From assembly GCA_030600555.1 (NCBI GenBank), contig JAUVLW010000003.1, positions 1 through 50,780 of the forward strand: DNA of 50,780 nucleotides, read 5' to 3'. This document shows, piece after piece, positions 1 through 41,300 of the stretch. Below the pieces are notes generated by a model that worked only from the letters and a program-made list of their open reading frames with translations, ran no database searches and was not told where the DNA came from. Each line of letters begins with the position of its first letter. Within the stretch, counting starts at the first letter, position 1. The stretch comes from Candidatus Aenigmatarchaeota archaeon. GTDB lineage: Archaea > Aenigmatarchaeota > Aenigmatarchaeia > QMZS01. Made by a program: the position numbers and the translations under genes.

Positions 1-1075
1 AATAATAAATGAAAGATCCACTGAAATTTTCCTTAAAATTTCTAAACCAAGTAAGATTTCCATCTTTGAAATAAAAACAATCATTTTTTCTGACAAGATA
101 AGGAACACCTATTGTACCAACTGAAGTTAATAATATATCTCTATGCTTCGGAGCACCATATTTTTCTTTTATTTTATTATATCTTTCTGTAGATATAAAT
201 AATTTCAAACTTATACTTTTACCCGAATGCAATTCTATAATCTCTTTAGACCTGAAAAAAGGAATTCCTGTTTTTTGATATTCTGATTGAAAAATACGTT
301 TACTTGAAGTAATTTCAACTATCTTCTCTAACTTTTCAACTCTCCACCCCTCTGGAATCTCCCCCATTTCACTTTGAATCATCTTCCCGCCTGATGATTT
401 ATAGAGTTTTCCGTTTTCGTCGGGAAATTCAAAATCTACAAACCAATGGCGGAAAATTGTCCGCCCGATTTCTTCGAGTGTTTTATTTTGTTTTTGAAGA
501 ACTTCAATTTTATCGTCAAGGTCGGAAAGGATTTTTGCGATTGCTTTTTGTTCAGGGAATGGCGGGATATTTATTTGATAATTCATAATTGCAATTTTAT
601 CTCCTCGTGGCATTTTTGTACCTTTTGAAGTTAGTACTGTATATTCAAAGAATTTTTCTTGAGATAAATAATAATATAAGAATTGAGGATTTAGAGATGA
701 ATTTTTTGGTCTTATTACTAAAACATCATTTGAGCAACCACCATTAAATTTAGCCAACCACAATTTTTTAAAATAAGTTCTAATGTTTGAAAATAGAATA
801 TCTCCTATTTCAAATTTATTGGTTTTTCCCGTTTGAGGTAAAAATGAAGCCTCAACTATACCTCTCTTATCTGGAAGCATATTTTCTGTTGATATGAAAT
901 TTTTATGATTGAGTTCGGTAGCAGTTATTTTTTCGTTAATATATGAAGCAACATCTCCCAATTCTTTAACTTTCCAATCTTCAGGAATTTTTCCTATTTC
1001 TGTTTGTTTTATCTTCGATGAAACTTCAGAAAAAATTTTGTTTTCTGTTTGTTTGAATTTAGTTTTCTGTTTCAT
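1..1075 (-). CDS. hsdS: Type I restriction-modification specificity subunit HsdS (3' end runs off the window start)
   Basis: Absent from the ORF track because it has no in-window stop. Manual minus-strand translation from ATG 1075-1073 stays open to position 2. It reads MKQKTKFKQTENKIF..IGKIPEDWKVKELGDV (TRD1) ..INIPPFPEQKAIAKILSDLDDKIEVLQKQNKTLEEIGRTIFRHWFVDFEFP (central conserved HsdS helix) ..GEIPEGWRVEKLEKIVEI (TRD2) ..NFSGSFIYY. Confidence 0.88.
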   Translation of the reverse strand, partial: MKQKTKFKQTENKIFSEVSSKIKQTEIGKIPEDWKVKELGDVASYINEKITATELNHKNFISTENMLPDKRGIVEASFLPQTGKTNKFEIGDILFSNIRTYFKKLWLAKFNGGCSNDVLVIRPKNSSLNPQFLYYYLSQEKFFEYTVLTSKGTKMPRGDKIAIMNYQINIPPFPEQKAIAKILSDLDDKIEVLQKQNKTLEEIGRTIFRHWFVDFEFPDENGKLYKSSGGKMIQSEMGEIPEGWRVEKLEKIVEITSSKRIFQSEYQKTGIPFFRSKEIIELHSGKSISLKLFISTERYNKIKEKYGAPKHRDILLTSVGTIGVPYLVRKNDCFYFKDGNLTWFRNFKENFSGSFIYY

Positions 1076-1076
1076 A

Positions 1077-3254
1077 TTAAAGAGCTTCTTTACCTTCTGG
1101 AATATAAGTCCTCAAATTATCCAATTTACGAATAAATTCGGAGATTTTACTTTTCTCTAAATTTCTTAACTCAGAAATCTTATTTAAATCTTTACTTTCA
1201 GAAACTATATTTTTAATCAGGTTCAAATAACTTTCTTTCAATTTCGCATTAGAAGTAATTTTGGATTTGTGAGTTATATATAAATCAAAGAACTCTAATA
1301 AGAATTCTACAGTAAAAAAACCAATCTTATCTTTACAACTTAGCTTTTTTCTAGAATTTAGATTCAAACTCCCTTCTGATTTTAATTTATTTTTACATAC
1401 AACCAAGATACCTTCAATATCTCCGTCACATTCTTGAGGAGGGTGATCTAAATAATCCTTAAATTTTCTTAATTCAGATTTACTTATTTGTTTATGTTGT
1501 TTTGAATCAATCATATAAGAAATATTGTTTAGCTCTAACACACCATCGGGTTCATTTGGACCTCCTAAAGGTGAATAATTACCATAGATATATTTAAGAA
1601 TAATATTAATTGCAAGCTCAACTTCTTTTCCTTCCTTCTTTGCATCTTCAGAATGTTTTTCTGTGGGTGAAACATAATTTTTCAATAATCTAAACGCTTT
1701 ATGAATCTCTTTTTCTAAGTTCAAACCATATTTCTCCAAAATACAATACTGTATTTTATCATACAAGTATTTTAGTATTTTATCAGTCTCCCTTTCATTA
1801 AATATATAATAATAATTAATTTCTTCGATAACTGGATAAAGTATTTTTTCATATTCATTAAATCTACTATCAGTTGAGATAATTATCGTATAATGTCTTG
1901 AAAATTTTGTGTCTTTTTTATCAGAATAAATTTTAACTCGGAGACTTATTCTACTTTTATCTTTATTTACTTCAATCAGTTTAAAATGATTTTCATTCAC
2001 AATTGTTTCTTTATCTGCATGTTTTTTTAGTTCTTTTAAAAATATATTTGTAAACCTTTCTAGATTGAATTTAAATGGTGTTTTAGACACAATTTTCTCT
2101 TTTTCTAAAAGAGTTAATAAATTATTTTCTTTATCTAAATCAATTATTTTATTATAATAGAACTCTTTAATATTCCTCTTCTGAAATAAACTGTTGAAAT
2201 AATAAGCTATTGGTAAATTATAACGGGTGTTTACTTTAATCTTTAATCTATCTAAAATATTAGAAATTTTTTTAGTTAATTTTTCCCCATGAACTCCTTT
2301 AAGCCTATGATCTAATAACAAATTTATCTTGAAATAACCTGAACTAAGATTCTTTTCAATAACAAGAGAATAATTAATTTCTTCACCTATTTCTTTTGGT
2401 GAATTAATTAATAAAACGCCAACCTCTTTCAAATTTAATATATCTATTGTATCTTCCAATAGAGTCTCATTATTAACAACGTGGAAAATATCATAATGAT
2501 CCTTTTTAGAGTGAATATTTATTGAAATATCTTTATCTGAATAGCTTAATTTTTTAATTCTTTGATTATTTTTATTTAATTCTAATAATAAATTTTTAGC
2601 ATCTACCTTGAAATTGTCATAATCATCGATTAAGTCCGAAATTATATTTTCGGAGTGACCTTCCTCGCCATTTATTTTAGAAACAAACAAAATCCTCTCT
2701 TTTATTGATCCTGAAAAATGAATTTTTCCCGTATTATAATTTAATTTGATTAATAAATTTGGGAAAAATTCTTTTTCTCCCGATGTATGTGGCTTTACAT
2801 TTCCTCTATATTTTTTTTCATATGCATAGATGATTCTAATTATTTTATTTTCAGAATCCTTATATACTTTTGAGTTACTAAATAATTCACCATTCAGATC
2901 TATTACGCCCTTTAAAATTTTCTCTTCTTTTTCTTCAAATAATTCATCAAAATGAAATATTTCCAATTCCTTAATAAATTCTTCAAAATTAGTTTTAGAA
3001 AGAGTTAATAATTTCTCAGAATTTATTTCTGATTTACAATAACTATTTTTTAAAATTTCAACAATCTTTTTCCAAAAAATAATTTCTTCCAAGTTTTCTA
3101 ATCTCTCAAATTCATTTTTCAAACCCTCATGAGATAAAGCATTATTAACTTTAAAATAAATTTGAACTCCTTTTAACACCCTAGTTCCATTTTTATTCAT
3201 CAATAAATTTTTCCAAATCTGCTTAAGTTCATTCCTATTCATTTTTCCTACCAT
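1077..3254 (-). CDS. 725-aa protein with an uncharacterised ~560-aa N-terminal region and a FokI-type PD-(D/E)xK nuclease C-terminal domain
   Basis: Long uninterrupted ORF whose stop lies 1 nt from the hsdS ATG. The C-terminal segment YIYGNYSPLGGPNEPDGVLELNNISYMIDSKQHKQISKSELRKFKDYL parallels FokI KVYGYRGKHLGGSRKPDGAIYTVGSPIDYGVIVDTKAYSGG..ADEMQRYV. No Walker A or helicase motifs seen. Confidence 0.65.
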   Translation of the reverse strand: MVGKMNRNELKQIWKNLLMNKNGTRVLKGVQIYFKVNNALSHEGLKNEFERLENLEEIIFWKKIVEILKNSYCKSEINSEKLLTLSKTNFEEFIKELEIFHFDELFEEKEEKILKGVIDLNGELFSNSKVYKDSENKIIRIIYAYEKKYRGNVKPHTSGEKEFFPNLLIKLNYNTGKIHFSGSIKERILFVSKINGEEGHSENIISDLIDDYDNFKVDAKNLLLELNKNNQRIKKLSYSDKDISINIHSKKDHYDIFHVVNNETLLEDTIDILNLKEVGVLLINSPKEIGEEINYSLVIEKNLSSGYFKINLLLDHRLKGVHGEKLTKKISNILDRLKIKVNTRYNLPIAYYFNSLFQKRNIKEFYYNKIIDLDKENNLLTLLEKEKIVSKTPFKFNLERFTNIFLKELKKHADKETIVNENHFKLIEVNKDKSRISLRVKIYSDKKDTKFSRHYTIIISTDSRFNEYEKILYPVIEEINYYYIFNERETDKILKYLYDKIQYCILEKYGLNLEKEIHKAFRLLKNYVSPTEKHSEDAKKEGKEVELAINIILKYIYGNYSPLGGPNEPDGVLELNNISYMIDSKQHKQISKSELRKFKDYLDHPPQECDGDIEGILVVCKNKLKSEGSLNLNSRKKLSCKDKIGFFTVEFLLEFFDLYITHKSKITSNAKLKESYLNLIKNIVSESKDLNKISELRNLEKSKISEFIRKLDNLRTYIPEGKEAL

Positions 3255-3325: not shown

Positions 3326-3739
3326 TCATTTTACATCACCAATCAAAGATTTATTAATGAACTTTTCAAGTTCATATTTATCATGAATACATTCCACCCT
3401 TCTTTCCAATAAACCTTTTAAAAAATTTTCAATTGTTATTGACTTTTTCCCGTAAGATTGTGGATAAAAAGTAATAGGTTCTTCTTTATCAAAAATTACT
3501 AGTTGTGGATACAGGGATTTTGTTTTAGCAGTTTGATGAATTCCTATTCTTTTAGCTACCGATAAACTCCAAAGAAATTTTGATTTTAATTCTTCCTCCT
3601 CCACGGGATTAATAACTTTTTCTAAAATTGCTACAGAATACAAAGATTTAATTTTATCTAATAATTCCTTTACCTTTTTAGTCTCTTCCGTAGATTCCAA
3701 TCCAACAGGGATGTAAAACTCAAACTTTGCAGTTTCCAT
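3326..3739 (-). CDS. Hypothetical 137-aa protein, first gene of the 137aa / 725aa / hsdS transcription unit
   Basis: ATG-initiated ORF, co-oriented and 72 nt upstream of the 725-aa gene. TTTAAA TATA-like box about 22-27 nt upstream of the ATG. No recognisable motif. Confidence 0.6.
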   Translation of the reverse strand: METAKFEFYIPVGLESTEETKKVKELLDKIKSLYSVAILEKVINPVEEEELKSKFLWSLSVAKRIGIHQTAKTKSLYPQLVIFDKEEPITFYPQSYGKKSITIENFLKGLLERRVECIHDKYELEKFINKSLIGDVK

Positions 3740-3841
3740 AAGATAAGCTATTAAAAAAGCTTTAAATGGGTATATCCACCCCCCCTATACTAACTCTTTT
3801 TCGTATTCAATATAAATATAACCTCAATTTAATTTCAACCC

Positions 3842-3856
3842 TCGACAATTTGTCGA
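3842..3856. repeat. 15-nt palindrome TCGACAA-T-TTGTCGA
   Basis: Read directly. Shares the core GACAA-N-TTGTC with the palindrome at 4349-4367. Lies about 100 nt upstream of the 137-aa gene start. Confidence 0.7.
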
Positions 3857-3967
3857 TAAACCAATTTTAGGTCTGCTTTTTTGGGAGGAATTGGCTGGAT
3901 TGTCCTGAACAGGGATTTTTGTATTTGCGCAGTCTGTTTCCCTTAATCTGCCCTCCTCTGCCTGCAA

Positions 3968-4000
3968 TTTCAACTGTCCGATAAACTCGGACAGTTGAAA
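3968..4000. repeat. Perfect 13-bp stem / 7-nt loop hairpin (TTTCAACTGTCCG ATAAACT CGGACAGTTGAAA)
   Basis: Read directly. Relatively GC-rich for its AT-rich surroundings. Lies inside the dubious 91-aa ORF 3824-4099. Confidence 0.8.
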
Positions 4001-4043
4001 CCCTTCTTCTATTAATTTAATTTTCCTCTTACCTAAACACTTG

Positions 4044-4068
4044 ATTATTTGAGATAAACTCAAATAAT
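4044..4068. repeat. Perfect 10-bp stem / 5-nt loop hairpin (ATTATTTGAG ATAAA CTCAAATAAT)
   Basis: Read directly. Its loop/junction GATAAAC also occurs at the 3968-4000 hairpin and just after the 3842-3856 palindrome. Confidence 0.7.
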
Positions 4069-4164
4069 TATTTAATCCACCATTTAATTCTCCACCCAAT
4101 CAGCCATTAAACCACAATATCTTTTTACTCACCCCCACACCACCCCATAATCTTCCGAGTGGCT

Positions 4165-4203
4165 TTCTGGGTAGTTTTCTGGATAGTTTTCTGGATAGTT
4201 TCT
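4165..4203. repeat. 12-bp tandem repeat x3.25 (TTCTGG[G/A]TAGTT) in a non-coding gap
   Basis: Read directly. The minus-strand translation gives ETIQKTIQKTTQKATRK, resembling the TITK repeat of the neighbouring AlbA_2 gene. Confidence 0.8.
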
Positions 4204-4348
4204 AAACAATTATTTGCTCAGTTACATTAAAAAAGCCCACAAACACCAGAATTCTTGTATTTTAGCACTTACCATACCCTCTCAGTTACATACCAGTTAC
4301 ATTAAAAATAGAACTTATTTATTGTCATCTGGAGAACTTAATTTCAAT

Positions 4349-4367
4349 TGGTGACAAATTGTCACCA
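4349..4367. repeat. 19-nt palindrome TGGTGACAA-A-TTGTCACCA
   Basis: Read directly. Lies 32 nt downstream of the AlbA_2-regulator stop codon. Confidence 0.7.
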
Positions 4368-4398
4368 GTTCACATCCATAACCTCTTTAAACTCACTC

Positions 4399-5826
4399 TC
4401 ATTTTTTCTCAATCACCCATTTTCCGGTTCTACTGCTGCCAACTCTTTTAAGCCGTCCTTTTTTCTTTAGGTTATTTAAATGATACCTTACACCCACAAC
4501 CGTTAATCCAACCAGTCTTGACATCTCTTCAGCAGTTAGATGAGGGTTATTTTTTATTATTTCAAATATTTCTCTTTCCTTATACTCTCCTTTAAATTTT
4601 TTGGTGATAGTTTTAGTGATAGTCTTGGTGATAGTCTTGGTGATAGTAATTGGAAAAGTTATCTTGTAAAAATCAAAATCACCTTCAATAATTGGATTTA
4701 AATGATACTGGGCATTCCACCCATTTATCATTTTATGAAATCCACTGCCGATATTCTCAGAAAACCTTATATATCTAAATATCTTTGCAACTATAGGATT
4801 TCTTGGTAATGAGAAATCTTCTTTTAAAATTAATTCAATATCTTTAGGCAATGCCCCAGGATTATAAAATTCAAACCTGTTTATAAAAACCCTTATTCTT
4901 GGATTTGACCTGCTGAAATAATCAGTGTGAACTATCAAATTAACAAGAGCCTCCCTTATTGCCTGTAAATGTGGAGGATCATCATCCCTAACACCTTTTT
5001 TAATTGAAAAAGGTACATTAATTTTTCTTATTAATCTTTCATAAATATCAAAAAAAGTTATGAAGAGATTCCTTTCAGAAGATAAACGGTAATTATATCT
5101 TGCTGGCGCATCCTCATAAGAAGTGCCCTCGATTTCCAGATATTCTATTCTATAATCAGAAATCGCTTCCGCTAAACTATCTTCTTTTCCAAAAACCAAC
5201 AATCCGCCATAGGTAATCTTTCCGTCTTTTAACACACTTAACTTTTGAAGAAATTCTTTATCAGGCAGACCGTTGTACCTATGCGCGGGATTCATTTGAA
5301 TAAAAAAATTTCTATATTGTTTAATCGTTTCTCCGTCCAAATCCTCAAAATTAAAAGTTGTTAATTCCCGATCTTTTTCTTCAAAAGAGGCATTCCTAAA
5401 AAAAGAATCTATTTCTTCTTGTGTTGCTCTCTGGTTTCCGCTTGCTATTCGGATAAAAGTATTTTTCGGATTATTAAAATATATTGGCTTGTCTTTTGGA
5501 GATTTTTTAGGAATATAAAAAACAAGAACAGTTTTTTCACCAAAATTATATTTTTTACTAATAACCTCCATCCCCTTATTAAATTTATCCCCTGTTTTTA
5601 GAGTATTAGTGAAATCTTGCCCTACTTTTTCAGGATTTTTAACACCAACGACCTCATATTTTTTCCCTTCTTTCTTAACTCCAAAAACCAGCCACCCTCC
5701 GGCAGTATTTGAAAAAGCGCTCACGGTTTCCCAACTGCTTTTTGGAATCTCAGATTTAGCCTCTTTAACCTCAAAATCTTCCCACTCAATATCCTCAAGT
5801 TTCTCAACCAATTCTTTCTTATTCAT
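4399..5826 (-). CDS. AlbA_2 (Schlafen-like) / HATPase_c_4 / C-terminal wHTH putative transcriptional regulator (often annotated 'RecG-like')
   Basis: N-terminus ..[40 protein letters not shown] (AlbA_2 signature). Mid-region [13 protein letters not shown] (HATPase_c_4 signature). C-terminal wHTH ..[32 protein letters not shown]. The start overlaps the hsdM stop as ATGA. Confidence 0.82.
4603..4650 (-). repeat. In-frame 12-bp tandem repeat x4 encoding (TITK)4 linker
   Basis: ggtgatagtttt/agtgatagtctt/ggtgatagtctt/ggtgatagtaat on the plus strand. The protein reads [16 protein letters not shown]. Confidence 0.9.
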
Positions 5827-7394
5827 AATTTATACCCCAACCCTGAAAGATTCTTTTTAATTTCTTCTTCCAGTTTCTTGGATTCTTTAAACTGTTCACC
5901 CAACTCAGAAGTCAGTCTTTTCATTTTGTCATCAAACGGCTCCCCATCATCCTTCTCTTCTTCAATCCCAACATAACGACCCGGGGTTAAGATAAATCCC
6001 TGTTTCTCAATTTCTTCAGTTTTAACTGCTTTGCAGAATCCTAAAACATCTTCATACTTACCGCCTTCTCCTCTCCAGGAATGATAAGTATCGGAGATTT
6101 TTTTAAGTTCCTCATCAGTCAGTTCCCTATTTCTTCGCGTTATCATCTGCCCCATCTTCCGGGCATCTATAAACAATACTTCCCCTCTCCTATCCCTGAA
6201 TTTATGATTTTTCTTGTCCCGCGAAACAAACCACAGACAAGCGGGAATCATTGTGTTATAAAATAACTGGGAAGGCAACGCAACCATGCAGTCAACCAAA
6301 TCACCCTCAATAATGTTTTTCCTGATTTCGCCCTCATTTGAAGTATTTGAACTCATTGAACCATTAGCCAAAACAAAACCCGCAATTCCAAAAGGAGATA
6401 AATGATGAATAAAATGCTGCACCCAAGCAAAATTTGCATTCCCAACCGGAGGAACTCCGAACTTCCACCGAACATCATCTCTTAATAACTCTCCTTTCCA
6501 GTCGCTGTCATTAAAGGGGGGATTGGCAAGAACAAAATCCGCCTTCAAATCCCTGTGAGCATCATTGTGAAAAGAATCTCCCCATTGCACATTGGAGTCT
6601 ATCCCGCGGATTGCAAGATTCATTTTGCATAAACGCCAGGTTGTCTGGTTTGATTCCTGACCATAAACAGAAATATTTCCGATTTTCCCACCATGAGCCT
6701 CAATAAACTTTTCGCTTTGCACAAACATTCCTCCTGAACCGCAGCAGGGGTCATAGATTCTTCCTTTGTAAGGTTCAAGCATTTCAGCAAGCAATCCAAC
6801 AATGCTCTTTGGGGTATAAAACTGTCCTCCCTTCTTCCCCTCTGCATCAGCAAACTGACCTATAAAATATTCATAAACTCTTCCAAGAACATCTTTGCTC
6901 CTGCTCTCTTTATCCCCCAAACCAATCGTTCCAATTAAATCTATAAGTTCGCCCAATCTTTGCTTATCAAGAGCGGGTCTTGCATAATTCTTTGAAAGAA
7001 TTCCTCTAAGAGAATGATTATCTTTTTCAATTGCCTCCATCGCATCATCAATCAATTTTCCAATCTCAGGTTTTTTCGCATTTTTTTCAAGATAACTCCA
7101 CCTTGCAGCTTTCGGAACCCAGAAAATGTTTTCAGCTGAATATTCATCTCTATCCTCCATCACACCATAACGGTCAGAAGACTCTTTAACATACACTTCA
7201 CTCTTGGGGTCCAAAGTCTGTTCTTTCAAATAATTATATTTCTCTTCAAAAGCATCTGAAATATATTTCAGGAATATCAGCCCCAAAACAACATGCTTAT
7301 ACTCCGCAGCATCCATATTATTCCTCAATTTGTCCGCCGCCTGCCAGAGTTTCTGCTCAAAACCCAAATCCGAACCATTTGAACTGCCAACCAT
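5823..7394 (-). CDS. hsdM: Type I restriction-modification DNA methyltransferase subunit HsdM (N6-adenine)
   Basis: N-terminal HsdM_N-like [32 protein letters not shown]. AdoMet motif [12 protein letters not shown]. Catalytic NPPFN. Start moved to the internal ATG ([17 protein letters not shown]) rather than the track start at 7421. Confidence 0.95.
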
Positions 7395-7512
7395 AATTAT
7401 TGGTAAATTAAAACAACACAAAAGAATTTGGTTAATGCTCTAATACAAACAGGTTTTAAAAAGAGAATTAGCTTAAAATATTATATTATCACAAACTAAA
7501 ATTAATATAATT

Positions 7513-7716: not shown

Positions 7717-8634
7717 TCAAATCAAACCCTTATCCATAAAACTGAAATAATCCTCGAGATTTTTCCCGATTATTATGTGGTCCAGAACTCTGACATTAAC
7801 AAGGTCGCAGGCTTTAACAACTCTGTCCGTAGTTTCAATATCATCTCTCGAAGGATCCACCTCACCGGAAGGGTGGTTGTGAACAAGGATTATTGAAGAC
7901 GCTGTTTCTTTTGTGGCCTCTCTGACAATTTCCAGAGGATCAACAATGCTTGCATTCACGCTTCCCTTTGTCAGTTCCTTTGTGTCTATCACTTTATTTT
8001 TCCTGTCCAACAGAATAATATTGAAAAATTCCTTTTTTGAATCTCTCAAATAAGGACCATAAAAATCCCTGACAAATCCAATTACAGATTCCACATTATT
8101 CAGCCTTTTTTTGCTCTCAGCAATTTCCCGGTAAAACCTTTTTCCAATTTCCAAAGCAGATTTTATCTGAACACCCTTTGCCATCCCGATTCCTTTAATT
8201 AAACACAGGTCATCAACAGAAGCCTGGTCTATCCCCCTCAAATCCCTGAATTTATCCAGCAATTTTCTTGCCAAATCCTCCGCGCTTGAACCATCAAAAC
8301 TATTGCCGGTTCTTAAGATTATTGCTAATAATTTAATTAACGGAACATTCTCAGAACCAACTTTAATTAACATCTCTCTTGGTCTGTCTTCCTTAACCCA
8401 TTTCCTTATTGGTTTTGTTGTTCTTAATTTTGCGGATTCTTCTTTTACAAGTTCCCTAATTTTTCTGCAATCTTCTTTAGTCTTCAACTTTAATTTTTTA
8501 ATTATTTCATCTTTTCTTTTATCAAAAAATTTATCTTTTGGTCCACTGAAAGAAATTTTTCCAAATTTGCTGCAAACCGGATATGCTTTGCTCTTAACTA
8601 AATAATCAATTAAATCCTCTTTTGTTTCGTCCAT
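7717..8634 (-). CDS. radC: RadC-like JAB/MPN domain protein with HhH and a ~75-aa lysine-rich N-terminal extension
   Basis: Motifs DRPREMLIK..LLAIILRTG, HhH L(I)KGIGMAKG, and the JAMM motif HNHPSGEVDPSRDD. Confidence 0.85.
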   Translation of the reverse strand: MDETKEDLIDYLVKSKAYPVCSKFGKISFSGPKDKFFDKRKDEIIKKLKLKTKEDCRKIRELVKEESAKLRTTKPIRKWVKEDRPREMLIKVGSENVPLIKLLAIILRTGNSFDGSSAEDLARKLLDKFRDLRGIDQASVDDLCLIKGIGMAKGVQIKSALEIGKRFYREIAESKKRLNNVESVIGFVRDFYGPYLRDSKKEFFNIILLDRKNKVIDTKELTKGSVNASIVDPLEIVREATKETASSIILVHNHPSGEVDPSRDDIETTDRVVKACDLVNVRVLDHIIIGKNLEDYFSFMDKGLI

Positions 8635-32314: not shown

Positions 32315-35300
32315 TTAACCTGTGGCGTTTGCCATAATATAGATATAACCGTAATAATAGCCTGTGGTTATGCCTTGCGGGGTATTTATCCAGTAATATG
32401 TTGACTGATTTGTGCCTGCTGGGGCAGGAGAAACCATATCTTGATAGGATTCAGTTATATCTGCACCTACACCCGAATTATTGACAAAAGCATAGCTCAT
32501 ATTCTCAACATATATTGAATAACCCGAAGGTCCGGTTAAATTTGACCCTTTTATATATATTCCCTCCGCATCATTGGAATTTTCATTTATTGTAACATAA
32601 ACAGGTCCTCCAGCCAACTCAACTTTATTTACACTCGGCCATGAAGGCTCTACAGTAGCGCTAAGCTGATTATTAGAAAGACTCATTATCAGGACAATTG
32701 AAATATCTATCTTCGTATTGTTTGTATTATTATTTGATGACTGGGTTCCTGTGAACAAAACATCCAAATTCCAAAGGGTATGCAGATTTCCTGTTGAATT
32801 TATTGTCCAGTTTAAAAGACAGGATTCATTTTCATTCAGGGTTCCGCAACTCACAGGATTCTGAGCAGTCCCGTTTGAAGAATCTATAACATAAAAAGGA
32901 GTGGCATACCCAACACTAACTGCTGTATCAGGTTCAGTTCCTGATGAATTATATCTAATAGTTCCCTGCACAACTCCGCAATCTCCGCCTCTGCAGGTAA
33001 CATTTGCTTTCAGGACAAATATCCTGTCCATACCCACCTTATAACCTTCATTGGAATCAGCATCGCCTTTTCCTGGGATTGACGGTGGTAACATTAAAGA
33101 CACTTCAAAATTACTATTGCTCACCGAACTGTTTAGTCCTATAGTTGCATTTGCCTCATTTTTTTCTGTTGTATTATAATATACTGTTGAGTTGTGTGTA
33201 ATATTGCACATTGTAGTATAATTATCTGCGCTTAGCCCAGAGGTATCCCAAGATACTATTGCTATGCCTGTTAAATTTGTTGTGCTTAAAGAAATAAAAT
33301 GCCACCCCCCTTCTGTAGAATTTTGATAATAAAAATATACCGGATAATTCTCAATTTCATCTGAAGTATTAACATCTTTGACTGAACATGTTAAGTCTAT
33401 CAAAGTTCCTACAGAATAATTCCCGCCCGCAGGAGTTCCCCAGGTAATATTTGACCAACCCCATATTTCAATACTTACATTGTTAATTCCATCATCATAA
33501 TAAATTTTACTTGAATTAACTTTTATTGTTTCAGGACCTAATTTATAATCCACAGGTATTGTCCAATTCGTATCCTCTCCTGTCGCTATCTGTGAAGTTG
33601 AATTATGCCATAAAACTGAATCTGGTGTTACAGAGTTACTATTTTCATCAATAGTTGTTGAATTTAAATCAATTGTTTCTCCTCTATGAAAAACCATATT
33701 TGCTGCAGGATAAGCAATAGTTGTATTAAGCAGTCCCTTTACAGTTAAAGTATTTGACCTTGTTATCGGGATTCCTGTTGAAGTATTATAATATATTGAT
33801 GGCGCATCATAGATTTTGCAACTAAAACTATTGCTCCCAACCGGATACTCAGATATATCATAAGTAAAATAAGCTGTTCCGTTTTCATCTGTGGTATTGC
33901 TTCCTATACTGGCAGTACTATTATAAAAATACACTAAATAATTTGCCACATCCCCTGAATTATATATATCTGTAACATTGCAACTAAAAGTAACATCCCC
34001 TCTATAAACACTGCCTGTTGGAGCATTCCAGGTAAGATTGCTTTTACCCCAAACATAGAAATTCTTGTATGGTAGAGAATCATTCCAATTATTATTCTGG
34101 TCTTTTGTATAAATTTTTACAGAATGCTCTCCAACCAGCCAAGTTGAATCTGTATCTATTGTATAATTTGTCCAGTTTTGTGGGTTAAGAGAAGGCAACG
34201 TTATTGTATAATTCTGGAAAGAATCTGTTGTTGAATTAAATTCTGCTTGCGATTCATTTATTGATTCATTCCATCTTGCATAAACAAGAACGGATTCCCC
34301 TTTCCAAACAACTGTATCATTCAAATCATAGATATCATTGTATAAAACAGGTGGTTTAGTATCGCCTGTTTTAGTATCTAAAATACTTTTTCCTTCATTC
34401 TGGGAAGAAGCATTATAATACAAAAAAGAGGCATCAGTAATATTACAGGTTATATTCTCATAACCAAGAGAATTATCAACAAAACTATACTCAGCCCAAC
34501 CTGTTGAATTTGTTGTGTTTGTTCCCAACAATCCTGTTGAGTTATAGAAAGACACAGTATAATTAAAGATTGATGCAGATGAATCCGCATCCCTCACCTT
34601 ACAAAACATTGTTGTGCTGTTTCCAGGTTCAATTGTGGAAGGATTTAAAAAATGTTCAGAAATCTCCGACCAACCCCATACATTCAAATAAAATATATTA
34701 GTTTGATTTAAATTGCCAAAAGTATCATTTGCGTAAATTTTCCAATAAATTTCTCCAGGTGTTATTGAAATATTTGACCATGTAAAATTTGCCCAACTTC
34801 CAGTGTCATTTAAATCCATAGGAGAACCATAAGAGGTTTTGTTTTCCCAAACCCCAGTTTCATTCGTGGATAATATTGCATAACATAACTCAAAATTATC
34901 CTGCCAGTAAGAATATATGATTGTGGGGTCATTTTTATGCACCACAGTTCCATTGTCAGGCCCAACATTTGAATAATTTGGCGGCTGGTTTTCACTGGTT
35001 TCCAAAAGTTCAACTAATCCATCCTGAGAAGAAGCATCATAATACATAGAAATCGGATCCGTAATATTACAGGTAATATTTTCAAACCCCAGAGAATTAT
35101 CAACAAAGCTATACTCAGCCCAACCTGTTGAATTTGTTGTGTTTGTTCCCAACAATCCTGTTGAGTTGTAGAAAGACACAGTATAATCTGATATTGGAGT
35201 GCTATTGTCATCAGTCACCCTGCATCTCATAGTCGTAGACTGCCCCGGTTGAATAACACTTGGATCTAACGAAGAATTAGTTAATGAAGCCAAACCCCAA

Positions 35301-38300
35301 ACAGTAAATATTAAATAATCCAAAGTATCGTTCCAATTATAAGATAAATCTTTTGCATAAATTTTTACAGAATGCTCTCCAACCAACCAAGTTGAATTTG
35401 TATCTATTGTATAATTTGTCCAGTTTTGTGGGTTGGGAGAAGGCAAAGTCATTGTATAATTCTGAAAAGAACTTGTTGTTGAATTAAATTCTACCTGTGA
35501 TTCATTTATTGATTCATTCCACCTTGCATAAACAACAAGCGAATTCCCTCTATATAAATCAACCGTACTCAAATCATAGAGGTTATTATATAAAACAGGC
35601 GGATCACCCTCATATAAAATAATATGATAATTTGAATAATCTTCTTCTATTAAACTGGAAGTCTCTAATTTAAAATGCACTCCATAATCTTCACCATTTA
35701 AGGTTATGTTAACAACATAATAAAAAGTAATATTGTTACCAACACCAATACTTCCTCCCAACGAAGTATTCCAGTTTATTTTTCCCACGGAAAAATTACC
35801 TCCTGTAAAATTATGCGTGGAATTGCTATACCATATATCATTTATTCCGTCCACAGTCCAGGAATCATTTAGATATTCGTGGAAGATTGAATCAGAAGAT
35901 TGAATGCTCCATCCCGCTGAACTATTTTCATCATTATTAATAATGAGTTCAACTCGATAAACTTTAGAAGTATATAAATTAAAGGATTTATTTAATCCAT
36001 TTCCAATTAAATCTGAAATATCCGAATGAGTATCTTTTCCTGTAACATCATATATTTTTATCTCCTGTAGACTCAAATCTATTGAAGATGAAATTATATT
36101 AAACTCATAACTGCCATTAATACCACTTCCATTATCTATCTGCAAAACATTTCCTGAAGAATCCCTTAAAACCGCATAAATACGATAAGAACCAGGGGTT
36201 TCTTTGCTGGTGTTCCAAGAAATTGTATTCCAAATTCCGGCCAAATCCAAAGCCTCACCAGAAATTATCTTCCTGGAAAAAGTCTCATTAATAGTTGTAT
36301 TTACAACAACCCAATCTCCACTAACATTTGAGTAAACCTGCATCAACAAATAACCGGTTATATCTGTAGAACCTATATTTGAAAGACAGGAACCATTATT
36401 CCAAGTAACATTCCAATTAGTTATAATTGGTGAACTTGAGGTGTTTGTTGTTGACATATTTGCATATACTTTTATTGAACTCGCGCCTGAAGCGCAAGAA
36501 TGAATATCATATCCTGAACTGGCTTCTGCAGAAGTTATTGCGCACAACACCGAATTATCAGAAGTGTCTAATAAATTATAAGTGACCTCTGTTCCTGTTT
36601 GCACTGTAGCCTCAACAAAAAATTTATCCCAACCCGCAAGATGTGTTGGAGTTATTGGTACTGAAGTTAGATTCCCTTTGAGTTCATATCCATCATATTC
36701 CACATCCAGTTTAACATAATCAACATATAAATATTCACTGGTGGTCTCTGAACCCCATATCCAAAGTATATGACCACTTCCATTAACCACATCTAAAAAC
36801 CCTGAAGTAAGAGAACCTTCAACAGTTGTATCTGGTGGATTTTGTGTCACTTGCTGTTGGACAACCTGTATCCATGAACTGCAATTTGGAAGAGTTGCTG
36901 TATTAGCTGTGAGATTGCAAACATATACTCTGCTGGTAACATCCACACTCCCATACCCTTCTCCAGTAAAATTTATTCTTGTAATTTTAGAAGCATTTTG
37001 AGCAAGTCTCATCTGAGTTCTAATCCACATCCGGTCTCCAACACCAGGGTCAGGCAATTGCCAACGAGTACCCCCTGAGATTGCAATAGCGGTGTAATCT
37101 GTTGATGTAGCTGCAACTTCACTATTTGGATTGCTTTCAGGAGGCGCATTATTTGATTCTACAGACCACGCCCAGCAATCTGTTCCTGTGGTGCAGGAAT
37201 CAAAATCATAGGTTGTTGAATAAGCGGTTTCATTAAGTCTTGCTGTTCCATCAGTTATATCATAATCAGAAGATAAAGAAGAATTTATTTTTGTCTCATC
37301 ACTGAAATTATCTTCCCAGGAACCTAAACCGCAAGCTGTGAGATTAACCATTTTATTTGGTTCATAAGAATTTTTCTCAGTCAAAATTTTTATTGAAGCA
37401 TTTGCCTTAACATAAAAATAATGATTAACAGACTGATTTGTTTTTCCTGCTGTGTCATTAGTCCAAATATAATAGATATAAGTGCCTAACTGCCAGGTAT
37501 TTGTAAAATTATATTCATAAATATCCTCAGTATTATTGGTCATAGAATAATAATTAGTTTGTGAATCCGGATCTGTTATATAAACTCTTACTAAATCCAC
37601 ACCTTCTTCGTCAGTTACATTCACCTGTATTGTAACATTGTATCCATACCCGACTATTTGCGGTGTTGCTGAAATATCCATAATCAAAGGCACATCATGC
37701 ACAGTTATTGTTGTTGTATTTTCACGAGAATTTGTGTATTTGGTTTCAGAACCCAGATAAGTAATATTTATTGTATGGGTGCCTACTGAAGCGCCACCCA
37801 GGATTATATAATTCGCCCTTGCCCAACCACCTGAATCTGTTGTATCTGAACCAATATCCTGTGAAGCAGTCTCATCCCTAAAAGATACAGTTTCTCCAAC
37901 CATAACACTTCCATTATCATACAACAACCTTGTGGATAACTGAATTGTTTCTCCCCTAACAGGGTCTGAATTATTTGAACCAATATTCGCAAAAGAAGTA
38001 TTTGCATGTACGGTAATATAACGTATTTTCCATGCTGCGCCAAAATTATCCGAGGTTGATTCTAATTCAACCTGTTGCTGTCCAAGTTCTGCTCCGATTA
38101 ATAAATTAACAGTAATATTATTCCAATCAAGTTCAGAAGGACTTAAATTCCCTACAAATTTATTTAGATTTCCTGTGGTATTTACCCAATTTGAAGGAAG
38201 AGTCCAGTTTGAAACAACCTCTAATGCATCCTGAGAAGAATTTTCATTAATAACATAACCCTTTAAATCAGTTGTGTTTCCTCTGGTTATTTTAACAGGG

Positions 38301-41300
38301 TAATATGTTATATTAACGTCCATGGCTCCTCCAACCCTCACCTCTAAAATTTTATTCTGCAACTCTTCCCTTGAATGGAATTCAGAACCGGGGTTTGTAT
38401 AATTTAAAGTAGCATTTATGTTATAATCTCCTGCGGGAGTTGATGAATTGGTGGATATATTAAAAGTAGCCACTGAACCTGAACTTATATTTCCCAAATC
38501 ACAATAATCATTGGTGGTCCCTTCACACACACAAACCAAACCAAGTATATTAGGACAGTTTATTTTTACCGCAACATCAGTGAGATTTTCAGAGAAAGGA
38601 TTATTTATAGTAAAATTATAGGCGGTAAATTCGCCGGTGTCTATTTCTGATGGATCTAACACTGAAGAAACATTTTGTTTTAAATCATGTATTTTAAATA
38701 TATAAGAATGATTTTCGACATAATTTCCTCCCGGGTCCCAGGTCAGCGAAATATTCCACTTGAAATCATAAGTCCCTGTAGCAGCATCAGAAGGAATAAA
38801 ATAACCTTGCGTACTATTGTCAAATCTTTTCTCGCAGGTTTCATCTTTATTTATTGTGCCGCATGATTTTGTTTCATCCGGACCCCACGAAACCTTATTA
38901 TCAGAATTATCCAAAATATTCAGAGATATATTTGCATTAAGAGCAGTAGCATTTTTACTGGTAATTGTAATATTTATCCATTCCAGAGTATCTTCAAGTT
39001 CATATTCATTCACTCCATAAGTATACTCATTTTCATGTTCCACATTTGAAATAAGCAATTCAGCAGAGATTATTGTGAAATTGTATGTTGCTTCTATGTT
39101 ATAACCATTTGTATCTGTAAGAATTCCGCTATCAGGATTCCTTATGCTAGAATGAACCCGGTATAAACCACCATCATGACTATCAGTGTCCCACGCCCCA
39201 TTACTCACCCATACTGCTGAAATATCCAAACTGTTTCCTGGAATAATAGTTCTTGGCACCCAGTCATCCACCACAGGAATCCCATAATCATTCCAGGTAC
39301 CCCCGCTATATTGCTGTATTCTCATCAACAAATAACCAGTAAGATTATAAGAACCTGTATTCGTAAGTTTTGACTCAATTATATATTCTTCTTCTTCTCC
39401 AAAATCCACATAACTGCTCTGATATTCCGCCATTTCTTTTGTCTGATTTATCCAATCCATACTTCTAACCGTATTTGAAATGCGGACTTCGTCAAGGAAT
39501 CCATTCATATATTCAAGCGAACCAATATCATCTTCTATTCCAAAATATATATGACTATCTGCGGTATCATAAGTATGTGTAAAACCAGAGGCCAACTCTG
39601 AACCTCCCACATACCATCTAAGTGTAGTTCCATCATGCACTATCGCATGGTGTGTCCACACATCGGTTACAGGTGTCACTCCAGTATTCCAATCATTTCC
39701 GCCGCCCCAGCCCCACAAAAACCAATGATTGGTACGCACTGCAATTTCAAAATGTTGAGACGAACCATCTTCACCCCAACCAATAATACCGCATCTATCT
39801 GTATTATCTATGTTAAGCCAAAATTCTATGGTCCTTACAGAATTGCCAGTAATGCCTGCGTCATTAACTGATTCCAAATAATCATCAAGACCATCAAAAT
39901 CATCACCGCCGTCCACTACTGCTGAAGAAAGATGAGCTACCCCATTACCGGGATTGGCATTATTTGCATTTGAAGTTGAATCTTTGCGTACATTAGTTCC
40001 ATTTTCAGATAAATGCCAAACACCAGTATAATTGTTATCCCAAACACCCGTGATATTTTCCGCAGAATTTGCATTGGAATTTCCATAATACATATAAATC
40101 GTTGTTGTCCCTGTTGACAAATTAGGAATCCTGACCCAGACATCTAAATTATTATCTCCGCAATACTCAATTTCATAATCCATCAATGTAGAATTATCAA
40201 TAAATCTAACATCATTGCAATTAACCAGCATTTCAGATTCTTTTGATATATTTAGATAAACCGGAAAATTAATCAAATCAGTAGAACCTGCATTAGATAA
40301 ATTTATCTCCTTCCTGCGAGACCATGAAGAATTCCACCATATTGGATTGAAAATAGAAATATCCGTTAAATTAACCTGATTATTTGGTCCATAAGTATCA
40401 TTCACAGTAGCCACATACATCGCAGCATTCGCAACAACATAAAACGGATAAATTTCACTTGTGCTATTATATCCCGCAGAATTATTTGACCATATATAAT
40501 ATAAATACTCACCGCCTATCCATGTATTGGAATAATTATATTGGTACATTGTTTCAGAAATATTTATCATTTCATAACCTGTATAACTTTCACCAGGTCT
40601 TGCTATATAAACATAAACTTTATTTGCAGTGGTATCCAGCATCTCAGCTGAAATCAGAACAGTTTCTGAATAACCAACAATCTGCGGAGTTGCATTTATT
40701 GTTCCAAACACAGTTATCTTAAATAAATCATTGCCTTCTATTGAAACACCATCATCCCCCTGAAGAACATTTCCATTATCATCTGTCAAAGCAGCATAAA
40801 CCCTGTAAGTTCCGGAAGGACTTGAACCTGTATTCCAGGGATTAGCATTCCATAGAGAACCTATATCAAAATATTCTCCCGCAGAAATATTCCTCAAAAG
40901 AGAAACATTTGTATCATTAATTACCGTATCCACAACATTCCATAAACCTGAAGAATTGGTCTGCACTTGCATTAAAAGATAACCTGAAATATTAGTCTGA
41001 CCTGTATTTAATATAGAAGAACCATTATAAATATTTACCCAAACACCTGTCCAGTTTATCTCATCAATGTTGGAAGAATTATAATAATCAAAATTTATTC
41101 CTCTTATCCTTAAATCCCGGTTTTCTTCAGTTTCCCAGGATTCCAATATTGTTAAATTAGTTGTAAAAAGACTTACATTACCCGTTCCAGTAACATTAAA
41201 ATTACCAATCAAAACCCAATCAGAACCATCATATAATTCCAATTGCAAATCCGAATTATTATTTCCCCTTAAAGTAGAACCTGAATTATCATAAACCGGC

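What the first reader, a model, noticed from the sequence alone, without database searches (positions are those of the whole stretch)
1077..3254. 725-aa protein: a FokI-type cleavage domain fused to a 560-aa unrecognisable N-terminal region
Seen in sequence: the last ~165 aa are colinear by eye with the whole FokI cleavage domain.
- E-rich helix then YIYGNY..LGGPNEPDG versus FokI KVYGYRGKHLGGSRKPDG.
- ISYMIDSK versus VIVDTK. Together these give the D...D-x-K triad.
- KSELRKFKDYL versus ADEMQRYV.
- GILVVCKNKLK versus FLFVSGHFKG.
- FFTVEFLLEFF versus VLSVEELLIGG.
The N-terminal 560 aa have no Walker A, no helicase motif and no methyltransferase motif.

Established knowledge: the FokI domain is a sequence-nonspecific nuclease that acts as a dimer and is targeted by whatever it is fused to.

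Inference: this is a targeted or sensor-activated DNA nuclease, either a Type IIS-like enzyme without a cognate methylase or an abortive-infection effector.
Basis: partly seen in the sequence, partly recalled or inferred. Interest (0 to 1): 0.72.

Follow-up and report, generated by a model that had tools for sequence, protein, structure and literature searches.

The report
FokI-like nuclease embedded in Type I R-M operon
The 725-aa gene belongs to a small, unnamed archaeal protein family with a FokI/BspD6I-class DNA-cutting domain behind a ~480-aa region of unknown fold, and it sits inside a Type I restriction-modification operon, so it is most likely an extra defence nuclease.

Summary
The ORF is real: 1077..3254 on the minus strand, 725 aa.

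**C-terminal domain.** It is a PD-(D/E)xK nuclease of the Type IIS cleavage-domain class.
- FokI_cleav_dom is the only recurrent Pfam hit, but it stays below threshold.
- Profile-profile comparison with a FokI family alignment gives 92% probability.
- The AlphaFold2 model (pLDDT 90) best matches N.BspD6I and the R.BspD6I small subunit.
- E546, P569-D570 and D583-x-K585 are invariant in all 25 homologues that cover them.

**N-terminal region.** About 480 aa have no sequence or fold match.

The gene lies between hsdM and hsdS, and hsdS starts 1 nt after its stop codon. I examined 13 distinct homologue loci, and 10 had informative flanks.
- Eight of those 10 carry Type I genes beside the homologue, usually as hsdM-X-hsdS with overlapping stop and start codons.
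- All five visible HsdR copies keep their own nuclease motif, so X does not replace HsdR.
- Two lineages sit beside TIR and AlbA_2 genes instead, one next to an Eco57I-type methylase.

**Reading.** It is an R-M-embedded archaeal defence endonuclease. Its trigger or target is unknown. It is a new variant of a known kind.

The parts
1077..3254 (-). Gene X: 725-aa protein (721 aa if translation starts at the second ATG, 3242). It belongs to a small uncharacterised archaeal family.
   Evidence: ORF. Exhaustive phmmer found 28 representatives in 1.84 billion proteins, with full-length homologues of ~730 aa at 22-35% identity. Named members are all 'hypothetical protein'. AF2 full-length model: pLDDT 86, pTM 0.72.
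1806..3254 (-). N-terminal region, residues 1-483, with several sub-domains: helical 1-105, beta-rich 110-181, alpha/beta 205-336, a three-helix plus hairpin segment 344-395 (winged-helix-like by secondary-structure pattern only), and a beta-sheet 415-460. No known family or fold matches it.
   Evidence: No Pfam, NCBIfam or PADLOC hit. Foldseek against PDB and BFVD gave no credible N-terminal match. No similarity to HsdM, HsdS or HsdR and no internal repeats. Mean pairwise identity is 22-27%, and the conserved residues are mostly hydrophobic.
1650..1805 (-). Long linker helix, residues 484-535 (helix 490-528), preceding the nuclease core.
   Evidence: AF2 secondary structure. This segment is included in the 239-column Foldseek alignment to N.BspD6I.
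1299..1649 (-). PD-(D/E)xK nuclease core of the FokI/BspD6I (Type IIS cleavage-domain) class, residues 536-652.
   Evidence: It is the most conserved part of the protein, at 38% mean pairwise identity.
1500..1550 (-). Catalytic motif P569-D570 ... D583-S-K585. The helix glutamate E546 lies upstream at 1617-1619.
   Evidence: G542, E546, P569, D570, D583 and K585 are invariant in 25/25 sequences that cover them. They align to FokI PD450 and D467-T-K469.
1080..1298 (-). C-terminal helical tail, residues 653-725, with invariant E700 and a near-invariant Y717-x-P719 at the extreme C-terminus. It has no FokI counterpart.
2..1075 (-). hsdS (Type I specificity subunit). It starts 1 nt after the stop of X and is cut off by the contig end.
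   Evidence: The translation shows the typical HsdS N-terminus and two TRD-like halves. The orthologous position in other loci is Pfam Methylase_S.
3326..3739 (-). 137-aa orphan ORF directly upstream of X, function unknown.
   Evidence: No family hits. It is not similar to the small ORFs next to X in other loci.
4399..5826 (-). AlbA_2 (Schlafen-type) + HATPase_c_4 + winged-helix protein, also embedded in the operon.
   Evidence: Pfam. The same gene type lies next to X homologues in L008, L010/L011/L024 and L017.
5823..7421 (-). hsdM (Type I N6-adenine DNA methyltransferase). It overlaps the AlbA_2 gene by 4 nt.
   Evidence: Pfam N6_Mtase E 3.5e-111 and HsdM_N E 4.2e-28. PADLOC MTase_I E 5.7e-228.

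Best explanation
X is a two-module DNA endonuclease of a small, so far unnamed archaeal family that lives inside restriction-modification loci. The typical arrangement is hsdM-X-hsdS in a Type I operon.

Shown:
- The C-terminal ~190 aa form a PD-(D/E)xK domain of the Type IIS cleavage-domain class (FokI, N.BspD6I), with a complete and invariant E...PD...DxK site.
- The N-terminal ~480 aa are a confidently folded multi-domain region with no known relative. It evolves faster than the nuclease core.
- The accompanying Type I systems are complete and keep their own HsdR nuclease motif.

Inferred: X is an additional, self-contained defence effector co-expressed with the Type I system. The N-terminal module recognises its cue. 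That cue could be a feature of foreign DNA, such as a modification the host lacks, or an infection signal. The non-specific C-terminal domains then pair up, as FokI's do, and cut DNA. X would thereby cover invaders that escape Type I restriction.
For: Nuclease domain:
- Sub-threshold but recurrent FokI_cleav_dom hits.
- hhalign 86-92% probability.
- Foldseek top hits N.BspD6I and the R.BspD6I small subunit, prob 1.00. Nt.BspD6I is described as structurally similar to FokI, with a C-terminal catalytic domain (PMC8533099).
- Invariant E546, P569-D570, D583 and K585.

Context in the window: hsdM, an AlbA_2 gene, a 137-aa ORF, X and hsdS lie on one strand.

Context in homologue loci:
- hsdM-X-hsdS in L001/L002, L003, L004/L005, L012 and L013, and in L020 with a 180-aa ORF between X and hsdS. 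Stop and start codons overlap or abut.
- In L019 X is followed directly by hsdS.
- In L008 X lies inside an hsdR...hsdM operon.
- In L007 X lies next to hsdRSM in Haloarcula.

HsdR keeps PD...ExK in 5 of 5 loci.

Autonomy: the P0005 and L017 lineages sit with CAP12-type TIR and AlbA_2 genes, and in L024 beside an Eco57I-type methylase rather than hsdM. The window's HsdM is 75% identical to L001's, yet the X proteins are only 34% identical.

Precedent:
- Self-contained defence systems embedded in Type I operons, such as TgvAB (PMC11411939).
- 'Guilt by embedding' for Type I R-M (bioRxiv 10.1101/2024.01.29.577857).
Against: - No biochemical data exist for any member.
- The Pfam score is below the gathering threshold, and FokI itself is not among the top 50 structural matches.
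- No DNA-binding or modification-reader domain could be identified in the N-terminus. The target or cue is therefore pure inference.
- Near-exclusive and tightly coupled placement between hsdM and hsdS is also what a protein that physically depends on the M2S complex would show.
- No PADLOC model matches.
Confidence: 0.5

Rival explanations
1. PrrC-like guardian. X is held latent by physical association with the Type I methylase/restriction complex. It is released as a DNase when a viral anti-restriction factor disables that complex, which causes abortive infection.
For: X is found almost only inside or next to Type I operons, usually between hsdM and hsdS with overlapping codons. [quoted passage not shown] X similarity rank-correlates with HsdM similarity across 7 loci (Spearman 0.76, though the pairs are not independent). 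There are conserved charged residues on the helix after DxK and a conserved C-terminal Y-x-P tail.
Against: Two lineages lack adjacent hsd genes. HsdM at 75% identity pairs with X at 34%, which is unexpected for a tight interface. X has no similarity to PrrC's ATPase or anticodon-nuclease domains. In Haloarcula, X is transcribed convergently to the hsd operon.
Confidence: 0.2
2. Alternative restriction subunit. X docks on the HsdM2S complex and uses its sequence recognition and methylation sensing to cut at a fixed position without translocation, in the manner of a Type IIB or IIS enzyme. It would act alongside HsdR.
For: The hsdM-X-hsdS order suggests co-translation with translational coupling. 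X has no methylase of its own, so host protection would be explained by HsdM methylation. The FokI-class domain is a module that is targeted by whatever carries it.
Against: HsdR is present with an intact nuclease motif in every locus long enough to show it. The N-terminus has no similarity to HsdR, HsdM or HsdS. Some lineages sit outside Type I operons. There is no precedent.
Confidence: 0.1
3. Classical Type IIS-like restriction enzyme. The N-terminus reads a DNA sequence by itself, the C-terminus cuts nearby, and there is no protective methylase.
For: The architecture matches FokI and N.BspD6I: a recognition region, a linker helix, then the cleavage domain. The Foldseek alignment to N.BspD6I includes the linker. 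A winged-helix-like secondary-structure pattern occurs at 344-395 (inference).
Against: No Type II methyltransferase is adjacent in any locus. The N-terminus does not match FokI or BspD6I recognition domains, and no FokI recognition-domain family appears among the Pfam hits. A sequence-specific cutter without cognate methylation would be self-toxic.
Confidence: 0.1
4. The nuclease-like domain is inactive or has a non-defence role, for example as a structural, regulatory or mobile-element protein.
For: No experimental data exist. Pfam is sub-threshold. GC is low at 23-25% against ~33% for the window, which may hint at foreign origin.
Against: The complete catalytic set is invariant over 25 sequences down to 22% identity. 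All contexts are defence loci. There are no hits in viral contigs.
Confidence: 0.05

Closest known systems
FokI cleavage domain (Pfam PF09254; PDB 1FOK/2FOK)
   Same: Both are C-terminal PD-(D/E)xK domains with a helix glutamate, GG-x-x-x-PDG, D-x-K and a following helix in the same order. Profile-profile probability is 92%. FokI_cleav_dom is the only recurrent Pfam family.
   Different: X is below the Pfam gathering score (17.7 vs 25 bits). Only ~45-76 columns align by sequence. FokI is not among the top 50 structural hits. X has an extra ~70-aa helical tail. The N-terminus is unrelated to FokI's D1-D3 recognition domains.
N.BspD6I / R.BspD6I small subunit (Type IIS nickase and its catalytic partner; PDB 6QNZ, 2P14)
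   Same: They are the best structural matches to residues 484-725 (E 1.9e-4 and 1.4e-3, prob 1.00, TMq 0.48 and 0.37). The linker-plus-catalytic-domain layout is shared.
   Different: Sequence identity is 11-13% and rmsd 6-7 A. BspD6I belongs to a Type II system with its own methylase and a FokI-like DNA-binding domain. X has neither.
Defence genes embedded in Type I R-M operons (PrrC, TgvAB/GmrSD, Rlo genes)
   Same: They occupy the same genomic niche, inside hsd operons, which the literature takes as a predictor of defence function. In L004 X and a GmrSD gene share one operon.
   Different: There is no sequence or domain relation to any of them. X carries a FokI-class DNase rather than an anticodon nuclease or a DUF262/HNH module. 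The X family is archaeal.
HsdR, the Type I restriction subunit
   Same: Both are PD-(D/E)xK nucleases encoded in the hsd operon.
   Different: X has no SF2 helicase motor, no HSDR_N domain and no detectable similarity to HsdR. HsdR is present as well, and intact.

Membership tests
FokI_cleav_dom (PF09254) | Score at or above the Pfam gathering threshold (25 bits) | tested here: not met
   17.7 bits and E 0.0026 for the C-terminal fragment; no hit for the whole protein. 8 of 28 homologues hit at E<=1, best 1.2e-4.
FokI_cleav_dom (PF09254) | Catalytic PD ... D-x-K with an upstream helix glutamate, conserved in relatives | tested here: met
   E546, P569-D570 and D583-x-K585 are invariant in 25/25 sequences. 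They align to FokI D450 and D467/K469.
FokI_cleav_dom (PF09254) | Profile-profile homology to a FokI family alignment | tested here: met
   hhalign A2 vs A4: probability 92%, E 6.5e-7, but over only 45 core columns. Against the single FokI sequence: 86-88% over 73-76 columns.
FokI_cleav_dom (PF09254) | Fold closest to solved Type IIS cleavage domains | tested here: met
   The top two Foldseek PDB hits are N.BspD6I and the R.BspD6I small subunit. FokI itself (1FOK/2FOK) is not in the top 50.
FokI_cleav_dom (PF09254) | Sequence-nonspecific cleavage that requires dimerisation | not testable with these tools
   This needs biochemistry or a multimer model.
Type IIS restriction-modification system | Own sequence-specific DNA-recognition domain (FokI D1-D3 or BspD6I N-domain type) | tested here: not met
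   Pfam found no recognition-domain family, in X or in any of the 28 family members. The full-length model does not align to the N-terminal domains of FokI or N.BspD6I.
Type IIS restriction-modification system | Adjacent cognate Type II methyltransferase | tested here: not met
   The only methylases nearby are Type I HsdM in 9 distinct loci (window included) and one Eco57I-type enzyme.
HsdR (Type I R subunit) | SF2 helicase/translocase motor plus HSDR_N nuclease domain | tested here: not met
   No ResIII, SWI2_SNF2 or HSDR_N hit, no Walker A or DEAD motif, and hhalign against HsdR gives probability 0.04%.
Type I R-M-embedded defence gene ('guilt by embedding') | Located inside an hsd operon, with the location conserved among distant homologues | tested here: met
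   Window. Homologue loci L001-L008, L012, L013, L019 and L020. Exceptions: L010/L011/L024 and L017.
Type I R-M-embedded defence gene ('guilt by embedding') | Demonstrated protection against viruses or plasmids | not testable with these tools
   This needs an experiment.
PrrC-type latent nuclease | ABC-type ATPase N-domain plus anticodon-nuclease C-domain, and binding to the Type I complex | tested here: not met
   No PADLOC or Pfam hit and no Walker A. Binding is not testable here.
Type IV (modification-dependent) restriction enzyme | Recognisable modified-base reader domain (SRA, EVE/PUA, YTH, DUF262 and others) | tested here: inconclusive
   None was found by Pfam or by whole-model Foldseek.
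Known defence systems in PADLOC-DB v2 | Match to any effector model at E <= 1 | tested here: not met
   0 families at E<=1.

The most novel reading that the evidence does not exclude
X is a functional partner of the Type I methylase core. One form is a helicase-free restriction subunit that docks on HsdM2S and cuts at a fixed distance from unmethylated sites. The other is a PrrC-like DNase that guards the Type I complex and fires when viral anti-restriction proteins attack it. Either would be a new mode of Type I R-M function, so far seen only in archaea.
Probability: 0.25. Interest if true: 0.8.

Novelty: new variant of a known kind. Interest (0 to 1): 0.55.

Why it matters
Archaeal antiviral defence is far less charted than bacterial defence. 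This family spans Nanoarchaeia/DPANN-like genomes, Methanoperedenaceae and Haloarcula. Every named member is annotated 'hypothetical protein', and no Pfam, NCBIfam or PADLOC model matches the window protein.

The family joins a well-understood programmable cleavage module (FokI class) to a ~480-aa module of unknown fold that AlphaFold2 models with confidence. It sits in a fixed slot between hsdM and hsdS.

If it acts on its own, it adds a new effector and a new sensor or targeting domain to the list of R-M-embedded defences. If it depends on HsdM/HsdS, it would show a new way to use the Type I recognition core. A naturally modular FokI-class nuclease with a new targeting domain could also interest enzyme engineers.

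Tried and rejected
- **Word-indexed homologue searches.** Searches with the protein and with the family alignment returned only the query itself. The lysine/asparagine-rich words probably saturate the candidate list. The exhaustive phmmer was needed.
- **PDB sequence searches.** phmmer and hmmsearch with the protein, A1 and A2 found no FokI or other nuclease, only weak hits to AcaB, PCNA and others at E>0.05. I treat these as noise.
- **Full-length Foldseek.** The PDB list was dominated by SHP2 matches with TM<0.1 and rmsd>20 A, which is junk. The only matches with high probability and modest rmsd in PDB and BFVD were PD-(D/E)xK enzymes, consistent with the C-terminal domain.
- **The search for related loci.** A1 and A2 failed because they have no sufficiently conserved stretch. 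The 7-sequence subset A3 worked.
- **Viral contigs.** No relatives were found, so there is no sign that X is virus-borne.
- **'X supplies the nuclease for a nuclease-dead HsdR'.** Rejected: PD...ExK is intact in all five HsdR sequences.
- **'The N-terminus is a TRD, HsdM or HsdR-derived domain, or made of internal repeats'.** Rejected at hhalign sensitivity; all probabilities were below 2%.
- **'The 137-aa upstream ORF is a conserved partner'.** It shows no similarity to the small ORFs beside X elsewhere. Only the L019 and L020 small ORFs resemble each other.
- **'The 660-nt gap hides a decayed TIR, AlbA_2, NYN or GmrSD gene'.** tblastn found nothing convincing.
- **Per-domain net charge.** The result was not decisive. 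Residues 413-483 tend to be basic.
Full report
**1. The observation**

The ORF listing gives an ATG-started ORF of 725 aa at 1077..3254 on the minus strand. A second in-frame ATG four codons later gives the 721-aa product stored in the protein collection. An SD-like GGTG lies 6-7 nt upstream of the first ATG.

The region has 23-25% G+C, against about 33% for the rest of the window. A regex check finds no Walker A, DEAD/H or NPPY motif, and one PD...DxK at residues 569-585.

The whole protein has no hit in Pfam, NCBIfam, PADLOC or the PDB sequences.

**2. Is the C-terminus FokI-like?**

Sequence evidence:
- Scanning the last 223 aa alone gives PF09254 FokI_cleav_dom as the top Pfam family. The score is E 0.0026 and 17.7 bits against a 25-bit cut-off. 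It covers profile positions 31-83, which are the helix, PDG and DxK.
- An exhaustive phmmer against 1.84 billion representatives found 28 proteins. Sixteen of these are full-length (~640-770 aa) at 22-35% identity.
- When all 28 are scanned one by one, FokI_cleav_dom is hit by 8 of them (best E 1.2e-4). No other family is hit more than once.
- In the alignment of the C-terminal 242 aa, G542, E546, P569, D570, D583, K585, L630 and E700 are invariant.
- I checked my recalled FokI cleavage-domain sequence against 1FOK/2FOK (E 8e-131, full length).
- hhalign of the family profile against that sequence gives 86-88% probability and E 3-5e-6.
- Against a 15-member FokI family alignment built here, the probability is 92% and E 6.5e-7. 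Only 45 core columns align.

Structure evidence:
- AlphaFold2 with the family alignment gives a confident model of residues 484-725 (pLDDT 90.2, pTM 0.86).
- Its best PDB matches are the Type IIS nickase N.BspD6I (6qnz_B: E 1.9e-4, prob 1.00, 239 columns, TMq 0.48) and the catalytic small subunit of R.BspD6I (2p14).
- HindIII, McrC, Hjc, MspJI and viral cap-snatching endonucleases follow. All are PD-(D/E)xK enzymes.
- Nt.BspD6I is described as structurally similar to FokI, with a C-terminal catalytic domain (PMC8533099).

Conclusion for this section: the domain is a PD-(D/E)xK nuclease of the Type IIS cleavage-domain class with a complete active site.

Limits:
- The Pfam threshold is not reached.
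- FokI itself is not in the top 50 structural hits.
- The final ~70 aa form an extra helical tail.

**3. The N-terminus**

The full-length AF2 model is confident (pLDDT 86, pTM 0.72). It shows these elements:
- a helical domain (1-105);
- a seven-strand beta domain (110-181);
- an alpha/beta domain (205-336);
- a three-helix plus hairpin segment (344-395), whose pattern resembles a winged helix (my inference only);
- a four-strand sheet (415-460);
- a 40-residue linker helix (490-528).

Foldseek against PDB and BFVD gives no credible N-terminal match. The SHP2 hits have TM below 0.1.

hhalign finds no relation to the HsdM, HsdS or HsdR of the same loci, and no internal repeats.

Conserved N-terminal positions are mostly aromatic or aliphatic. 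Mean pairwise identity is 22-27%, against 38% for the nuclease core.

**4.

On the same strand as X, in order:
- upstream: hsdM at 5823-7421 (N6_Mtase E 3.5e-111, HsdM_N);
- an AlbA_2/HATPase_c_4/winged-helix gene at 4399-5826, overlapping hsdM by 4 nt;
- a ~660-nt stretch without a good ORF;
- a 137-aa orphan ORF at 3326-3739;
- X itself;
- one nucleotide after the stop of X, an hsdS gene that runs off the contig.

X is therefore embedded in a Type I R-M operon. I fetched homologue loci to test whether this is incidental:

| Locus (homologue) | Arrangement |
|---|---|
| L001/L002 (P0002) | hsdM-X-hsdS |
| L003 (P0003) | hsdM-X-hsdS |
| L004/L005/L006 (P0004) | hsdM-X-hsdS-GmrSD-hsdR |
| L012 (P0006) | hsdM-X-hsdS |
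| L013 (P0008; Methanoperedenaceae MAG) | hsdM-X-hsdS-ATPase-hsdR-YgjP |
| L020 | hsdM-X-180aa-hsdS-ABC-3C genes-hsdR |
| L019 | 183aa-X-hsdS |
| L008 (P0012) | hsdR-X-134aa-AlbA_2-hsdS-...-hsdM |
| L007 (P0007; Haloarcula nitratireducens, WP_220581586.1) | X convergent to hsdR-hsdS-hsdM, next to an OLD-type nuclease |

In most of these loci, stop and start codons overlap or abut.

Two lineages differ:
- P0005 (L010, L011, L024) is arranged Eco57I-type methylase, 574-aa unknown, CAP12-type TIR, X, AlbA_2.
- L017 is arranged X-TIR-AlbA_2.

Other points on distribution:
- A Nanoarchaeia MAG carries X next to Fic and AAA_14 genes.
- None of 2.9 million viral contigs carries a relative.
- The window itself looks archaeal and DPANN-like. 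It encodes a UbiA prenyltransferase, S7p/S5e, a beta-CASP nuclease and giant surface proteins.

**5. What this says about mechanism**

All five HsdR sequences in X-containing loci keep their PD...ExK motif. X is therefore not a stand-in for a dead HsdR nuclease.

A non-specific FokI-class nuclease cannot be constitutively active on host DNA. Three ways to make it safe are possible:
- (a) it attacks a DNA feature the host lacks, as Type IV enzymes do;
- (b) it is latent until an infection signal appears, as in abortive infection or a guardian such as PrrC;
- (c) it borrows recognition and methylation sensing from HsdM2S.

Evidence for autonomy, that is (a) or (b) without an obligate complex:
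- Two lineages lie outside Type I operons.
- The Haloarcula copy is transcribed convergently.
- The window and L001 share 75%-identical HsdM but only 34%-identical X.
- Self-contained systems embedded in Type I operons are documented (PMC11411939; bioRxiv 10.1101/2024.01.29.577857).

Evidence for coupling, that is (c) or a PrrC-like guardian:
- The hsdM-X-hsdS slot is kept in homologues only 22-39% identical to one another.
- Codons overlap at the gene junctions.
- The pattern is PrrC-like, with near-exclusive embedding.
- X and HsdM similarities are rank-correlated (Spearman 0.76 on non-independent pairs).

I commit to the autonomous embedded defence endonuclease as the most likely reading (about 0.5). 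The coupled models together get about 0.3.

**6. Comparison and novelty**

The C-terminal module is a divergent member of the FokI/BspD6I cleavage-domain class. The whole protein is not a Type IIS enzyme, because it lacks both a recognisable recognition domain and a Type II methylase. It is not HsdR, not PrrC, and not any PADLOC effector.

It is best filed as a new variant of a known kind: an R-M-embedded defence nuclease. It has a novel N-terminal module and a conserved slot between hsdM and hsdS. It belongs to a rare archaeal family (28 clusters at 50% identity in 1.84 billion) in which every named member is 'hypothetical protein'.

**7. Limits**

- The contig ends inside hsdS, so the presence of hsdR in this genome is unknown.
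- No experiment exists for any family member.

Noticed in passing
window 3740-4398: About 660 nt have no ORF longer than 91 aa, between the AlbA_2 gene and the 137-aa ORF. A 12-nt tandem repeat at 4164-4201 (3.2 copies) resembles the 12-nt repeat at 4601-4647, which encodes the TKTITKTI linker inside the AlbA_2 gene. This may be a remnant of a second AlbA_2-type gene. tblastn found nothing convincing.
   Followed up: partly
window 5823-7421 vs L001 1649-3214: The window's HsdM is 75% identical to the HsdM of metagenome locus L001. The X proteins between hsdM and hsdS are only 34% identical, and HsdS 33%. X therefore diverges, or is swapped, about as fast as the specificity subunit.
   Followed up: partly
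window 4399-5826; L008 12846-14246; L024 5610-7043; L017 3383-4753: AlbA_2 (Schlafen-type) + HATPase_c_4 + winged-helix genes lie within one or two genes of X in four separate lineages. CAP12/Pycsar-type TIR genes flank X in two of them. I could not tell whether this is functional linkage or a shared defence-island niche.
   Followed up: partly
window 1001-3000: G+C is 23-25% across gene X, against about 33% for the rest of the window. This fits recent acquisition or a different codon regime.
   Followed up: no
window 32315-44485 and 44574-50708, minus strand: Two adjacent giant ORFs of 4056 and 2044 aa. The larger has Laminin_G_3, Big_3_5 and DUF2341 domains, which suggests a surface or adhesion protein as seen in DPANN-type archaea. 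The smaller has no Pfam hit.
   Followed up: partly
window 7717-8634, minus strand: A RadC/JAB protein with a UPF0758 and helix-hairpin-helix N-terminus lies immediately upstream of the hsd operon, in an otherwise archaeal-looking window (UbiA prenyltransferase, S7p/S5e, beta-CASP).
   Followed up: no
L019 333-884 and L020 10582-11124: A 180-183-aa protein of unknown function (72% identical between the two loci) sits before X in one locus and after X in the other. It is absent from the window.
   Followed up: partly
window 474-514, minus strand: A sub-threshold Rfam match to RAGATH-25 (22.5 bits vs a gathering score of 49, E 0.058) lies inside the hsdS coding region. It is probably chance.
   Followed up: no
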